32,000 nt of DNA from contig NZ_WUUQ01000002.1 in the NCBI RefSeq assembly GCF_009831105.1, forward strand, positions 706,857 through 738,856, in the 5' to 3' direction. The translations under genes and the position numbers were made by a program. Shown here one piece after another: positions 6,938 through 10,185 of the stretch. Below the pieces are notes generated by a model. It ran no database searches. It was not told the origin of the DNA and saw only the letters and a list, made by a program, of their open reading frames with translations. Origin of the DNA: Copranaerobaculum intestinale (lineage in GTDB: Bacteria; Bacillota_I; Bacilli_A; Erysipelotrichales; Erysipelotrichaceae). Each line of letters begins with the position of its first letter. The stretch's first letter is position 1.

Positions 6938-8029
6938 TTACAGGAATTCTAACAGTACGTCATTCAAAAAATGTAAACCGTGATCGGTTGCGCGAAGATG
7001 ACGATGACATTCGTAAAGCTCCCCTTTTTTTATATTTATTTCTTTGGCCTGCTTGAACACATCATCAAACGATACGTGAAAAGCATCTTCAAAAGCCTGA
7101 TATGAGAGTCCTTCCTTCAGACGAAGCCCCATCATGACCATTTCAAACATTTCATCCTTTTGGGACAGCGTGATCCAGGAAGGCTCCTGTTCTCCTTTTA
7201 TATACGCATGCAAATTCTTCGGCATGTCATAGCGCTGATGATCCAGCTTTCCGCTGGCGCCGCATCCAATTCCATAGAAATCATGGTAATACCAATACTG
7301 CTTATTATGCATGCTTTCATATCCCGAACGGGCAAAACTGCTGATTTCATATTGATGAAATCCTTTATTCTCCAGTATCTGAATCGCTTTATCATACATT
7401 TCGCCTTCCAATGTCGGATCGATATTGGTAACACCCATTCGCCCGAATGCACTATGCTCTTCTATCGTCAGGGCATACAGCGAAATATGTGTGATCGGCA
7501 GGGCTGCAGCCTGTAATAAATCCGCTTCCCACATTGCCATAGTCTGGGTTGGAAGACCATAGATCAAATCGATCGAAATATTGTGTATTCCTACCTTTTT
7601 TAAATCCTGAATTGCATTTACAACATCATTTGTTCGATGACAGCGATTCATCATATGCAGTAAATCCGGATGAAAACTCTGTACGCCCATTGATATACGG
7701 TTCACGCCCGCTGTATGCATGCAGCTGATTTTATTGGCATGCAGCGATTCTACATTGACTTCAACCGTATATTCTTCCACACTTTGCCGGTAAGGCTTAA
7801 GCAGTTGAAACAGAGCTTCCAGCTGATCTGACTGTAAGCTTGTGGGAGTTCCGCCACCGATGTAAAGGGTTTTTAAATCAGTACTGGGCTGCTGTTTGGC
7901 AAGATCGAGCTTCAGCGCTTCCAGATACTGATCACTCAAGCCGCGATGATAGCCACAGCGGAAAAAATCACAATACGCACATATGGCATCACAAAATGGA
8001 ATATGCACATACATTGACTGCGCCATCAT
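6938..8029 (-). CDS. hemW: radical SAM heme chaperone HemW (HemN-like, oxygen-independent coproporphyrinogen oxidase family)
   Basis: CDAICAYCDF is a CxxxCxxC radical-SAM motif near the N-terminus. Length is 363 aa. It occupies the position after lepA as in B. subtilis. SD AAGGAGG overlaps the stop of the upstream gene. Confidence 0.88.
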   Translation of the reverse strand: MMAQSMYVHIPFCDAICAYCDFFRCGYHRGLSDQYLEALKLDLAKQQPSTDLKTLYIGGGTPTSLQSDQLEALFQLLKPYRQSVEEYTVEVNVESLHANKISCMHTAGVNRISMGVQSFHPDLLHMMNRCHRTNDVVNAIQDLKKVGIHNISIDLIYGLPTQTMAMWEADLLQAAALPITHISLYALTIEEHSAFGRMGVTNIDPTLEGEMYDKAIQILENKGFHQYEISSFARSGYESMHNKQYWYYHDFYGIGCGASGKLDHQRYDMPKNLHAYIKGEQEPSWITLSQKDEMFEMVMMGLRLKEGLSYQAFEDAFHVSFDDVFKQAKEINIKKGELYECHRHLRATDHGLHFLNDVLLEFL

Positions 8030-8039
8030 CTAACCTCCT

Positions 8040-8786
8040 TTACAAATTTCCTATATCATCTTTCTCTTTTTCCTTTAAACGCATTCGATTATGGATGAAA
8101 TAGACAAGTGCCTTGCAGGTTGGCTTCTCCAATACTCCGGTATGCAGCGATATCAGAGCAGGCTGTTCCTTATAAGCCCTTGTGATTGCCGTACGGATTG
8201 ACTTTTCCACGCGGGTATACGTCGTACCGTGTTCCTTGGCTGTTTCTACCAGTATTTCTTTCATCGTTAAGCTGCAAAAAACCGGTTCACTCTTCAAATA
8301 AATCGCCGTTGTCAAATACTTGTGACCATTTAAATGAATAGGTATTCCTTTTTGTTCCAGCAGACGTCCTACAAACGTCTTGATGTTATCCTTGATCGAT
8401 TCTTCATACTGCTGAGTATCACTCTCTAAAGAAACAACATTAAATATATCTTTGCACGTGTACGGTTTGATTAAAAAATTATCGATTTTATGCTTGATTG
8501 AGAAATGAACTGTCTTCCCATCTAATTCACTGTACAAAGCGATGATATGTAAATCTTTCAGCTGATCATGATTACAAAGCTCCTCCATCAGAATTTCAGC
8601 TTTTTCCAAATTGATTTCAGGATTGATAATCAAAATATCCAAATGAAGTGCCAACAGCTGATTAACGTCTTCCACAATCGTTGTAGAGGTACCTACCAGA
8701 TTGCCGTTCTGGGTTTTGTTGATATTGATTAAAAATTCCTTAATCAGATCCAGATCGTCTACACATAAGAAAATATTGTTAAGCAT
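8040..8786 (-). CDS. Spo0A-family transcription regulator with degenerate receiver domain (Asn at phospho-acceptor position)
   Basis: The C-terminal half aligns by eye with the Spo0A effector domain (GIPIHLNGHKYLTTAI; YTRVEKSIRTAITRAY; KPTCKALVYFIHNRMRL). The N-terminal half is receiver-like (CVDDLD, LIKPY), but it has LDILIIN55PE where Spo0A has PDVLVLD56IIMP. Confidence 0.75.
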   Translation of the reverse strand: MLNNIFLCVDDLDLIKEFLININKTQNGNLVGTSTTIVEDVNQLLALHLDILIINPEINLEKAEILMEELCNHDQLKDLHIIALYSELDGKTVHFSIKHKIDNFLIKPYTCKDIFNVVSLESDTQQYEESIKDNIKTFVGRLLEQKGIPIHLNGHKYLTTAIYLKSEPVFCSLTMKEILVETAKEHGTTYTRVEKSIRTAITRAYKEQPALISLHTGVLEKPTCKALVYFIHNRMRLKEKEKDDIGNL

Positions 8787-8839: not shown

Positions 8840-9763
8840 CTATACTACATAATACATAAATTTCTTCCCAATTCGCTGCTTTCGATACCAGTTCTGTTTA
8901 ACGATACCCTCAAGCGAGTAACGAGCAGTTTCATAGCATACCTCTGCAAAAGTCATATAATCCCTGATCGTATAGTAATGGTCAACCTGATTATGGGTGA
9001 CATAAAAACCTGCTTGATGCTCACTTAACATCGGATACTGCTGCAGCAGTTCCTGTTTCGATAATATTCGCACGTCATCTCGCGCATTCCTACCTAATGA
9101 TAACACTTGTTTTGATAAATTCAACCGTAACTTGTCAAGAAACAATAAAAGCTTATACGTAAGATCAAACTCAGCCGGACTTGAGATATTGATATCAAAA
9201 AGCTCTGAAATCGACAAAAATGATAACGGATATAGCATTTTATGGCTTCCTAACAAGAAAAGGACGAATGCATAACTGGTGACTTTATCAAAAAATTCCA
9301 ATGCCACAAAAATTCGCAGAATGATGGAAATCTGATCATCAAGAAAGAAAGCAAAGTGTTTTCTTTGGATTGAATGGTCAATGCCCCATTGATCAAGGAA
9401 ACGAAACAGCATCATTTCCTTATCGCCTGACAAAGCTATCTGCATCTGATTTATGAATTGATGGGCCGTGGACTGCTGACGTTCATTTAGAATACGAGTA
9501 TCACATTCCCATACAACATGCTCATTACGGTGATCAAAACTGATCCCATAGAGCTGATCGGTCAGCTCATTGATACGATCGTTCACACAACTGTTTCTGG
9601 TAATATAGTACTCTTTTGCGAATGGGACAGACCAGCGAAACAACCGCCGATAATTCTCAATTTCTATCCATATCGGATCGATCATCAGCATTTGAAAATC
9701 TTGCGCGACCTCTTCTTTTCGGCAATATTTCATATCGGTGTACTTCTGAGCAGTTTCAAACAT
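8840..9763 (-). CDS. hypothetical protein; possible catalytically dead Fic-like scaffold with C-terminal winged-helix tail
   Basis: Good SD: GGAG, 8 nt, ATG. The C-terminus (YPMLSEHQAGFYVTH..YYTIRDY..CYETARYSLEGIV..IGKKFMYY) resembles the wHTH tail of Firmicute Fic-family proteins as I remember them. No HxFx(D/E)GNGR motif, HPF or GNG occurs anywhere in the protein. Confidence 0.6.
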   Translation of the reverse strand: MFETAQKYTDMKYCRKEEVAQDFQMLMIDPIWIEIENYRRLFRWSVPFAKEYYITRNSCVNDRINELTDQLYGISFDHRNEHVVWECDTRILNERQQSTAHQFINQMQIALSGDKEMMLFRFLDQWGIDHSIQRKHFAFFLDDQISIILRIFVALEFFDKVTSYAFVLFLLGSHKMLYPLSFLSISELFDINISSPAEFDLTYKLLLFLDKLRLNLSKQVLSLGRNARDDVRILSKQELLQQYPMLSEHQAGFYVTHNQVDHYYTIRDYMTFAEVCYETARYSLEGIVKQNWYRKQRIGKKFMYYVV

Positions 9764-9814
9764 TTTCTCATCTCCTAGATCATTTTAGCAAAGTAATAGG
9801 AGAAAATGGTGATT

Positions 9815-9833
9815 CTCGACAAACGTTGTCAAA
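9815..9833. promoter_or_regulatory. 17-bp near-perfect palindrome with two 0A-box-like half-sites (candidate operator)
   Basis: Minus strand reads TTGACAA-CGT-TTGTCGA (9832-9816). It contains TGTCGAG (minus, 9821-9815) and TGTCAAA (plus, 9827-9833), each 6/7 to the 0A box TGTCGAA. It sits about 55-70 nt upstream of the 307-aa ORF. Confidence 0.35.
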
Positions 9834-9837
9834 AGAC

Positions 9838-9863
9838 CACAAAAAAAGCCGCTGAACGGCTTT
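9838..9863 (-). terminator. intrinsic terminator after the ABC remnant
   Basis: AAAGCCG-TTCAG-CGGCTTT followed by a T-run on the minus strand. Confidence 0.7.
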
Positions 9864-9880
9864 ACAAACGAATGATTTCA

Positions 9881-10085
9881 TCACAATGCTAGATATTCAA
9901 CATGGGTTACAACGATCACAGTTTTTTGTTGTAAGGTAAATGCTTTTAGAATGGCGATTACTTCATTACGATTTTCTTGATCCAGATTACCGGTTGGCTC
10001 ATCGGCGAGGATAATATGAGAAGGCTTCAAAATCAAACGCGATGAAGTCGAAACATAACAAAACAACAAATAATAGTTTTTTCAT
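9881..10085 (-). pseudogene. remnant of an ABC-transporter ATPase gene (Walker B to H-loop only) fused out of frame to an orphan signal-peptide-like start
   Basis: The 62-codon frame carries only SRLILKPSHIILADEPTGNLD...VVTH (Walker B, D-loop, H-loop). There is no Walker A, Q-loop or LSGGQ. Upstream, an intact GGAG-N8-ATG (ATG at 10085) opens a different frame, MKKLLFVVLLCFDF..., which stops after 28 codons. Confidence 0.7.
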
Positions 10086-10140: not shown

Positions 10141-10185
10141 AACAAAAAATCCCCCATATATATTATTATATCACCAGGGGATTTT
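10141..10185 (-). terminator. putative terminator after lepA
   Basis: 9-bp stem AAAATCCCC/GGGGATTTT (10146-10154 / 10177-10185) with a large AT-rich loop, followed by T-rich sequence. Confidence 0.45.

What the first reader, a model, noticed from the sequence alone, without database searches (positions are those of the whole stretch)
8040..8786. Spo0A-family regulator with a naturally non-phosphorylatable (Asp-to-Asn) receiver domain
The C-terminal half matches the Spo0A DNA-binding domain, including the recognition-helix block (B. subtilis TASRVERAIRHAIEVAW versus YTRVEKSIRTAITRAY here). The N-terminal half keeps receiver landmarks: the acidic pair in CVDDLD and the Lys in LIKPY. The phospho-acceptor block is different. 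Spo0A has PDVLVLD56IIMP, whereas this protein has LDILIIN55PEIN, with the AAT codon at 8624-8622. To my recollection, engineered D56N Spo0A cannot be phosphorylated. This protein should therefore work independently of the phosphorelay, or act as a decoy or competitor at 0A boxes. It is also out of context: it is fused transcriptionally to hemW (10-nt gap, hemW SD overlapping its stop) and sits beside the forespore genes gpr and spoIIP.
Basis: partly seen in the sequence, partly recalled or inferred. Interest (0 to 1): 0.7.

Follow-up and report, generated by a model that had tools for sequence, protein, structure and literature searches.

The report
Second Spo0A with a dead receiver
This gut bacterium carries, besides its normal sporulation master regulator Spo0A, a conserved second copy whose phosphorylation switch is degenerate, encoded with an unknown partner protein behind a promoter that carries a Spo0A binding site.

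Summary
ORF 8040-8786(-) encodes a 248-aa protein with a bona fide Spo0A_C DNA-binding domain and a receiver-fold N-terminus. Asn55 (AAT 8624-8622) sits on the phospho-acceptor column.

It is neither an error nor a lesion of the only spo0A. The window is from Copranaerobaculum intestinale (Erysipelotrichaceae). A canonical Spo0A (DD/D/T/K intact, beside spoIVB) lies on the same contig. N55 is identical in 7 other assemblies.

The Asn is a symptom of something larger. The protein belongs to an undescribed, vertically inherited paralogue family in Erysipelotrichaceae.
- Across 21 loci the acceptor is D/Q/E/N/T, the acidic pair is absent in all but this protein, Thr is never kept, and Lys is mostly A/E.
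- The DNA-reading residues are fixed: E, K (Spo0A has R), R.
- dN/dS is 0.06-0.14.

The gene always lies in lepA | ~300-aa partner – paralogue – hemW. The partner has a SoFic-like architecture with a winged helix and no Fic motif.

Upstream there is a conserved 0A box (TGNCGAA), 27 nt before an extended -10 (TGnTAAAAT).

Best reading: a phosphorylation-independent Spo0A-type factor wired into the Spo0A circuit. Whether it activates or competes is untested.

The parts
8040..8786 (-). CDS of the Spo0A paralogue (248 aa; MXQ73946.1/WP_160625344.1, annotated 'hypothetical' or 'Spo0A C-terminal domain-containing protein')
8427..8786 (-). Pseudo-receiver domain (aa 1-~120): (beta-alpha)5 fold with D10-D11 and K107 kept, N55 at the acceptor and Y85 at the Thr position
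   Evidence: Pfam Response_reg below threshold; AF2 secondary structure; Foldseek 5wq0 TM 0.77; alignment columns
8622..8624 (-). Codon 55, AAT = Asn, on the phospho-acceptor column
   Evidence: identical in 7 other assemblies of the species
8088..8366 (-). Spo0A_C DNA-binding domain (aa 141-233)
   Evidence: Pfam 49.2 bits vs GA 25; 1lq1/1fc3 by sequence and by fold
8172..8225 (-). Recognition helix TTYTRVEKSIRTAITRAY; E194/K195/R198 correspond to Spo0A E213/R214/R217
   Evidence: across the family E is invariant, R214 is K in 20/21, and R217 is invariant
8840..9763 (-). Partner gene (307 aa; MXQ73947.1, hypothetical). N-terminal and middle helical domains with a beta-hairpin, and a highly conserved C-terminal winged helix (VCYETARYSLE...GKKFVYY). 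SoFic-like architecture without the Fic motif
   Evidence: always directly upstream of the paralogue
9815..9821 (-). 0A-type box TGTCGAG (family consensus TGTCGAA/TGNCGAA) at about -46 to -40
9782..9790 (-). Extended -10 element TGcTAAAAT, 27 nt downstream of the box; no -35 element
9845..9863 (-). Intrinsic terminator-like hairpin plus T-run that isolates the operon from upstream transcription
6938..8029 (-). hemW (radical-SAM heme chaperone), third gene of the operon; 10-nt gap, Shine-Dalgarno sequence at the paralogue's stop codon
   Evidence: the same junction (overlap to 16 nt) in all related loci

Best explanation
The gene encodes a member of a previously undescribed, vertically inherited paralogue family of Spo0A, restricted to a clade of Erysipelotrichaceae.

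The N-terminal domain keeps the receiver fold but has lost the phosphotransfer and switch chemistry as a family, so activity cannot be set by Asp phosphorylation. The C-terminal domain keeps the Spo0A helix-turn-helix and its base-reading residues. It therefore most likely binds 0A-type boxes (TGNCGAA).

The gene is expressed as the middle gene of a three-gene operon (pseudo-Fic/winged-helix partner, paralogue, hemW). The promoter has no -35 element. It has one consensus 0A box at about -43 and an extended -10, which is an activator-dependent design.

The most likely circuit runs as follows. Canonical Spo0A~P (and/or the paralogue itself) turns the operon on. The paralogue then occupies 0A-type sites independently of phosphorylation, with its activity set by its abundance and probably by the co-encoded partner. 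Its sigma-A-activating helix region is truncated, so I lean towards it modulating or competing with Spo0A rather than duplicating Spo0A's activation.

Shown: domain identities, the degenerate phospho-site, paralogy with an intact Spo0A in the same genome, purifying selection, and the conserved operon and promoter motif.

Inferred: DNA binding to 0A boxes, which protein occupies the promoter box, the role of the partner, and the sign of regulation.
For: Domains and acceptor column.

Not the orthologue: the TIGR02875 equivalog scores 41.7 against a cut-off of 200. The family HMM separates members (>=184 bits) from canonical Spo0As (<=139 bits).

Canonical Spo0A in the same genome and contig, in the recN-spoIVB-spo0A context. 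Both copies also occur in bacterium c-19, in Longicatena sp. (same 84,885-bp contig) and in a MAG (same 310,851-bp contig).

Family-wide degeneracy of D10/D11/D56/T86/K108, with E213 and R217 invariant and R214K in 20/21.

Purifying selection on both halves: dN/dS 0.06-0.14 overall, receiver 0.08-0.20, DNA-binding domain 0.03-0.11.

N55 fixed in 7 other assemblies.

Conserved synteny lepA | partner-paralogue-hemW, although the proteins are only 21-40% identical.

Promoter:
- The composite motif TGNCGA[AG]-N-TGnTAAAAT occurs 26 times in 390 kb of window plus loci.
- Every occurrence lies directly upstream of the partner gene; shuffled sequence gives 0-1.
- The spacing is 27 nt (26 in one lineage).
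- The invariant box positions G2, C4 and G5 are exactly the bases Spo0A contacts specifically (PMC3485338).
- TGTCGAA occurs only twice in the 32-kb window.

Canonical spo0A of this species carries its own reverse 0A box upstream.

The region aligned to Spo0A's sigma-A-activating helix is about 12 residues shorter (the location of that region is from my own knowledge).
Against: - There is no experimental or expression data.
- R214K could change or weaken DNA specificity.
- In this species the box is TGTCGAG, one mismatch at a non-contacted position, and the flanks differ from the family consensus.
- One strain lineage carries E194G in the base-contacting position. This hints at relaxed constraint on DNA reading, at least there.
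- The only sister-species fragment has an in-frame stop.
- The interdomain arrangement in the model is uncertain (pTM 0.52), so I cannot tell whether the receiver occludes the helix-turn-helix.
- The box could be bound only by canonical Spo0A, or by the partner's winged helix.
- A scan for other promoters of this design was uninformative.
Confidence: 0.55

Rival explanations
1. Positive lock-in factor. The paralogue activates its own operon and Spo0A targets through 0A boxes without phosphorylation. A transient Spo0A~P signal is thereby converted into an irreversible commitment.
For: The box sits at about -43 of a promoter without a -35 element, which is an activation geometry. The HTH contact residues are conserved. 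Isolated Spo0A DNA-binding domains bind their targets without phosphorylation (PMC3485338).
Against: The region aligned to the sigma-A-activating helix of Spo0A is truncated and replaced by a different conserved motif (QPxxI[CS][IL]). No evidence of self-activation.
Confidence: 0.2
2. Protein-protein modulator. The pseudo-receiver heterodimerises with the Spo0A receiver, or titrates Spo0A's kinases or phosphatases. DNA binding by the paralogue would be secondary.
For: The receiver half is under purifying selection although it is catalytically dead. It is still detectably Spo0A-like: about 40 bits to Erysipelotrichaceae Spo0A receivers and TM 0.77 to 5wq0. From my own knowledge there is a precedent in atypical/orthodox regulator heterodimers (WhiI-BldM in Streptomyces).
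Against: The DNA-binding half is the most conserved part, and its base-reading residues are invariant. That is hard to explain if DNA binding were dispensable.
Confidence: 0.1
3. Insulated local regulator. The box is the paralogue's own operator (R214K giving a private specificity). The module only controls partner-paralogue-hemW, with no cross-talk to sporulation.
For: The box, the operon and the protein are conserved together. In Amedibacillus dolichus and VE202-08, both the box (TAGCGAA, TGTCGCT) and the paralogue's helix (SSSVEK, SKVEK) are degenerate together. Lys is nearly invariant where Spo0A has Arg.
Against: The box is identical to the canonical Spo0A consensus at every contacted base, and canonical Spo0A coexists in these genomes. 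Insulation from Spo0A~P would therefore be difficult.
Confidence: 0.12
4. Strain-specific lesion, sequencing error or decaying pseudogene of spo0A.
For: Pfam Response_reg is below threshold. The sister-species fragment has Asp at position 55 and an in-frame stop.
Against: AAT is identical in 7 independent assemblies. The ORF is intact in more than 20 lineages and dN/dS is 0.06-0.14. A separate intact spo0A lies on the same contig.
Confidence: 0.02

Closest known systems
Canonical Spo0A (TIGR02875; B. subtilis, C. difficile; here MXQ73745.1)
   Same: Collinear receiver plus Spo0A_C architecture. Same HTH fold (1lq1/1fc3). E213 and R217 equivalents, the PxH(I/L)xG(Y/F) motif and the KPTNS motif are conserved. 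A consensus 0A box is associated with the gene.
   Different: The phospho-acceptor pocket is degenerate (N55 here; the family lacks the acidic pair, Thr and Lys). R214 is K. The linker is about 17 residues shorter. The sigma-A-activating helix region is about 12 residues shorter. It is not next to spoIVB. It scores 41.7 against the 200-bit equivalog cut-off. It coexists with a true Spo0A.
Aspartate-less / atypical response regulators (from my own knowledge: RitR with Asn at the acceptor, HP1043, ChxR, GlnR, WhiI)
   Same: Receiver fold retained without a usable phospho-site, fused to a DNA-binding domain. Activity is presumably set by abundance, partners or ligands.
   Different: None of these has a Spo0A_C output domain. 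This family is a paralogue of a master regulator that is itself retained, and it sits behind that regulator's binding site.
Extra spo0A paralogues in Clostridiales (10 genomes with two copies, Anaerostipes hadrus with three; Galperin et al. preprint)
   Same: More than one Spo0A_C-bearing regulator in one genome.
   Different: That survey counted a single spo0A in Erysipelotrichia. I did not examine whether the clostridial paralogues keep the Asp, and they are not reported with this operon or partner.
SoFic-class Fic proteins (3eqx/3zcn, 8cil), for the partner protein
   Same: Best and only consistent fold matches over the full length (N-domain, helical core with a beta-hairpin, C-terminal winged helix). 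One family member has a weak SoFic-like_C hit.
   Different: No HxFx(D/E)GNGRxxR motif in any of the 11 distinct partner sequences checked. TM is only 0.2-0.29 and E >= 2e-3. No sequence-level match to Pfam or PDB.

Membership tests
Spo0A (orthologous sporulation master regulator, TIGR02875) | Spo0A_C DNA-binding domain | tested here: met
   Pfam PF08769 scores 49.2 bits vs GA 25; fold match to 1lq1/1fc3
Spo0A (orthologous sporulation master regulator, TIGR02875) | Receiver domain with phospho-acceptor Asp (D56), acidic pair, Thr and Lys | tested here: not met
   N55 is on the acceptor column and Tyr is at the Thr position. Response_reg scores 17.9 bits vs GA 30.2.
Spo0A (orthologous sporulation master regulator, TIGR02875) | Score above the curated equivalog cut-off | tested here: not met
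   41.7 bits vs 200
Spo0A (orthologous sporulation master regulator, TIGR02875) | Conserved spoIVB-spo0A (recN) neighbourhood; single master copy | tested here: not met
   The gene lies between lepA and hemW. The copy next to spoIVB/recN is another gene, P0303.
Spo0A (orthologous sporulation master regulator, TIGR02875) | Base-contacting residues E213, R214, R217 | tested here: inconclusive
   E and R217 are kept; R214 is K here and in 20/21 family members. The effect on specificity is unknown.
Spo0A (orthologous sporulation master regulator, TIGR02875) | Binds 0A boxes and controls entry into sporulation | not testable with these tools
   Indirect evidence only: a conserved 0A box in its own promoter
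Aspartate-less (pseudo-)receiver response regulators | CheY-like (beta-alpha)5 fold | tested here: met
   AF2 strands and helices alternate five times, pLDDT 87; Foldseek hits to receivers, including Spo0A-N 5wq0
Aspartate-less (pseudo-)receiver response regulators | No Asp at the phospho-acceptor position | tested here: met
   N55. Within the family 11/21 lack Asp, and those that have Asp lack Thr, the acidic pair and mostly Lys.
Aspartate-less (pseudo-)receiver response regulators | Function independent of phosphorylation | not testable with these tools
   Needs Phos-tag or acetyl-phosphate assays and genetics
Fic/Doc (partner protein 8840-9763) | Catalytic motif HxFx(D/E)GNGRxxR | tested here: not met
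   Absent in all 11 distinct partner sequences checked
Fic/Doc (partner protein 8840-9763) | Fic fold with SoFic-type N-domain and C-terminal winged helix | tested here: inconclusive

The most novel reading that the evidence does not exclude
Spore-forming Erysipelotrichaceae run a two-tier Spo0A system. Phosphorylated Spo0A switches on, through a single consensus 0A box, an operon that encodes a phosphorylation-blind second Spo0A and a pseudo-Fic/winged-helix co-factor. Together these reprogramme occupancy of 0A boxes, acting as a timer, brake or commitment device. This layer would replace regulatory layers that other Firmicutes build from phosphorelay components, and it would also place the heme chaperone HemW under developmental control.
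Probability: 0.3. Interest if true: 0.8.

Novelty: new variant of a known kind. Interest (0 to 1): 0.62.

Why it matters
The Spo0A_C domain is used as the unique signature of the sporulation master regulator (PMC6136694). Surveys count one spo0A in Erysipelotrichia.

This finding shows a second, conserved Spo0A-type DNA-binding protein that cannot be controlled by the canonical phospho-switch. It occurs in common gut Erysipelotrichaceae, with its own partner protein and a promoter that carries the Spo0A site.

If it acts on 0A boxes, models of sporulation initiation in this poorly studied class need an extra node. Genome-based 'Spo0A present' calls could also be confounded by it.

It also gives a natural example of how a master response regulator can spawn a phosphorylation-independent paralogue.

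The prediction can be tested directly by EMSA or DAP-seq, Phos-tag, and deletion or overexpression.

Tried and rejected
- The word-indexed homology search with the protein found only its own 99% cluster. The exhaustive HMMER search was needed to find the family.
- The first genome-contig scan with the protein found nothing, presumably because the source is masked and the patterns were too specific.
- The family alignment A4 had no stretch conserved enough for a scan. The partner alignment worked instead.
- An exact look-up of the window protein on contigs failed, although the sequence is in the collection.
- A PDB profile search with the partner found nothing. Pfam and NCBIfam gave nothing significant for it.
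- Rfam and tRNA scans of the window were empty.
- The simple promoter scan did not pick up the real promoter because it has no -35 element.
It was dominated by unrelated chance hits: 1 of 120 was the module. It gives no information about a regulon.
- Literature searches found no description of this family.
- Rejected: sequencing error or lesion; D50 as an alternative acceptor; the box acting as a -35 element (the 27-nt spacing is too long); a functional link to gpr/spoIIP (ordinary synteny, with terminators in between).

Full report
**1. What is in the sequence**

ORF 8040-8786 on the minus strand encodes 248 aa. Pfam finds a Spo0A_C domain well above threshold: 49.2 bits against a gathering score of 25, over aa 141-233. 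It also finds a sub-threshold but end-to-end Response_reg match: 17.9 bits against 30.2, with aa 7-118 aligned to profile positions 2-110. NCBI's Spo0A equivalog model scores 41.7 against a cut-off of 200, so this is not the orthologue.

An AlphaFold2 model built on 21 family sequences has pLDDT 87.4. It shows a five-fold beta-alpha receiver followed by a helical domain. Foldseek matches the C-terminal half to the Spo0A DNA-binding domain structures 1lq1/1fc3 (TM 0.75-0.83, rmsd 2.4-2.9 Å). It matches the N-terminal half to receiver domains, including the Spo0A receiver 5wq0 (TM 0.77).

Three independent alignments place N55 (AAT, 8624-8622) on the phospho-acceptor column, and D50 on the Asp that opens strand beta3. 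The acidic pair (D10, D11) and the Lys (K107) are present, and the Thr position is Tyr. The 10-nt gap to hemW, with AGGAGG starting at the stop codon, is as described.

**2. Organism, and whether this is the only spo0A**

Exact-sequence look-ups identify the window as Copranaerobaculum intestinale DONG20-135 (Erysipelotrichaceae). LepA is MXQ73948 and the 307-aa neighbour is MXQ73947. The protein itself is MXQ73946/WP_160625344, annotated 'hypothetical protein' or 'Spo0A C-terminal domain-containing protein'.

A search with the Clostridium innocuum Spo0A found a canonical 277-aa Spo0A, P0303 = MXQ73745/WP_160625156, named 'sporulation transcription factor Spo0A [Copranaerobaculum intestinale]'. 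It is on the same 738,856-bp contig. It has VDD, VLVLD, CTT and MKPF, so all five signature residues are intact. It sits in the classical recN-spoIVB-spo0A neighbourhood. One metagenome sample contains both genes.

The AAT codon is identical in seven other assemblies of the species. The finding is therefore a genuine paralogue, not an error or a lesion of the master regulator.

**3. A family, not a point change**

The exhaustive HMMER search found about 25 cluster representatives of 228-248 aa that align over their full length at 21-40% identity. A genome scan seeded with the neighbouring gene brought in 20 more loci. These come from Erysipelotrichaceae MAGs, bacterium c-19, Longicatena, Amedibacillus dolichus, VE202-08, Merdibacter, Holdemania and Breznakia.

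Across 21 members from independent loci, the Spo0A signature positions read as follows:

| Spo0A position | Residues in the family |
|---|---|
| D56 (acceptor) | D 10, Q 5, E 4, N 1 (this protein), T 1 |
| D10/D11 (acidic pair) | absent in all but this protein |
| T86 | never Thr |
| K108 | A 11, E 8, K 2 |

Further representatives have H or R at the acceptor.

In contrast, the base-reading positions of the recognition helix are fixed. The E213 and R217 equivalents are invariant, and R214 is Lys in 20 of 21. The linker is about 17 residues shorter than in Spo0A. The stretch aligned to Spo0A's helix after the recognition helix is about 12 residues shorter and carries a different conserved motif, QPxxI[CS][IL]. 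From my own knowledge, that stretch is the sigma-A-activating region, residues ~227-240.

A family HMM scores members at 184 bits or more and canonical Spo0As at 139 bits or less. It still matches both domains of Erysipelotrichaceae Spo0As collinearly. This is consistent with an old duplication of a full-length spo0A.

Between closely related pairs, dN/dS is 0.06-0.14 (receiver half 0.08-0.20, DNA-binding half 0.03-0.11). Both halves are therefore maintained by selection. Both copies coexist in at least four genomes.

The C. intestinale protein is unusual in keeping DD and K. The only sister-species fragment (85% identical) keeps DD, K and also Asp at position 55, but it carries an in-frame stop on a 636-bp metagenome contig. 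The Asp-to-Asn change is thus recent and is one of many ways the family has lost the site.

**4. The operon**

In every locus examined the order is ...gpr-spoIIP-(~97 aa)-fmt-lepA | ~300-aa gene – paralogue – hemW – (rpsO, pnp). fmt is missing in one lineage (L019/L020). The paralogue-hemW junction ranges from a 4-nt overlap to 16 nt.

The ~300-aa partner has no Pfam, NCBIfam or PDB sequence match. Its AlphaFold model has pLDDT 81.9. The top seven PDB matches are all SoFic-class Fic proteins (8cil, 3zcn, 3eqx), followed by many winged-helix regulators for the C-terminal 70 residues. These matches are weak: E is 2e-3 to 8e-2 and TM is 0.2-0.29. One family member has a weak SoFic-like_C hit.

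No sequence carries the Fic motif. The C-terminal winged helix (VCYETARYSLE...GKKFVYY) is the most conserved part. I therefore call it a pseudo-Fic/winged-helix protein, tentatively.

gpr and spoIIP are 4.6-6.5 kb away, behind terminators. Their presence reflects ordinary Firmicutes synteny rather than a functional link.

**5. The promoter**

Upstream of the partner gene there is a terminator (9863-9845). Then comes TGTCGAG (9821-9815), and 27 nt later TGcTAAAAT (9790-9782).

Proteins at the related loci have diverged to 21-40% identity, yet the same design recurs. TGTCGAA is present in most loci, with TGACGAA or TGGCGAA in two lineages. The spacing to TGnTAAAAT is 27 nt, or 26 nt in one lineage. 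There is no -35 element.

The composite pattern occurs 26 times in 389,597 bp of window plus loci. Every occurrence is at this position, and shuffled sequences give 0-1. TGTCGAA itself occurs only twice in the 32-kb window.

TGTCGAA is the Spo0A box. Spo0A contacts G2, C4 and G5 specifically (PMC3485338), and exactly those positions never vary here. A second, degenerate box (TGTC[T/A]nn) lies 20 nt further upstream in most lineages. Canonical spo0A of this species has its own reverse box (TTCGACA) about 70 nt before its start codon.

In A. dolichus and VE202-08, the box and the paralogue's recognition helix are degenerate together.

**6. Interpretation**

A box at about -43 of a promoter that lacks a -35 element is an activator-dependent geometry. 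The operon is therefore most likely switched on by a Spo0A-type protein. That protein would be canonical Spo0A~P, the paralogue itself, or both.

The paralogue cannot use the Asp switch. D56, D10, D11 and K108 are each required in C. difficile Spo0A (10.1101/2022.02.07.479450). It keeps the DNA-reading surface, so it should bind 0A-type sites in a way set by its concentration and, plausibly, by its invariably co-encoded partner. Because the sigma-A-activating segment is truncated, I lean towards a modulating or competing role. A lock-in activator, a protein-protein titrator and an insulated local regulator remain open.

None of this is tested. R214K, the E194G variant in one strain lineage and the uncertain domain packing (pTM 0.52) are caveats.

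**7. Novelty**

Full-text searches found no description of this family. The main comparative survey counts one spo0A per Erysipelotrichia genome and reports paralogues only in Clostridiales. Another survey treats Spo0A_C as unique to Spo0A.

The components are of known kinds: an atypical response regulator, a Spo0A_C domain and a 0A box. The combination is new: a conserved pseudo-receiver Spo0A paralogue with a pseudo-Fic partner, behind a 0A box and upstream of hemW.

Noticed in passing
window 9881-10069 (-); L009 1982-5901; L001 1882-2511: The space between lepA and the partner gene varies between strains. This strain has only a 62-aa remnant of an ABC ATPase. Other strains carry an intact 209-aa ABC ATPase, or a whole LytTR regulator + 125-aa + 679-aa + ABC ATPase insert.
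   Followed up: partly
P0013, P0017, P0023, P0025, P0031, P0059; L042 5001-7922: Proteins made of 2-4 tandem Spo0A_C domains without any receiver. In L042 two such genes sit side by side in a chromosomal context (uvrC, glmS). Their function is unknown.
   Followed up: partly
window 8205-8207 (codon 194); L001-L003: A strain lineage (runs SRR21910172/174/176) carries E194G at the otherwise invariant, base-contacting Glu of the recognition helix. It also carries Y229C.
   Followed up: no
window 8574-8576 (codon 71): The window strain has Cys71, where all seven other assemblies of the species have Arg.
   Followed up: no
L043 1-636: A sister-species fragment (85% identical) keeps DD, Asp at the acceptor and Lys. 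It has an in-frame TAA after codon 73, with the reading frame continuing afterwards. This is either a pseudogene or an assembly error on a low-coverage contig.
   Followed up: partly
window 9828-9835 (-): In C. intestinale only, an inverted near-box TTTGACA (reverse complement TGTCAAA) lies 6 nt upstream of TGTCGAG, giving an imperfect palindrome. Other lineages instead have TTTtTtCTAtcTT before the box, and a degenerate direct-repeat box 20 nt upstream.
   Followed up: partly
L035 (Amedibacillus dolichus DSM 3991), L036 (VE202-08): The promoter box (TAGCGAA, TGTCGCT) and the paralogue's recognition helix (SSSVEK, SKVEK) are degenerate together. This suggests joint decay of the module in some lineages.
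   Followed up: no
L008 2329-2622; L014 1796-2092; L019 2614-2901: A conserved 95-98-aa ORF without a Pfam hit follows spoIIP in all related loci. In all lineages examined except L019/L020, fmt is inserted between it and lepA.
   Followed up: no
window 10144-10183 (-): A probable lepA terminator (AATCCCC...GGGGATT followed by a T-run). The automatic scan missed it because its loop is long.
   Followed up: no
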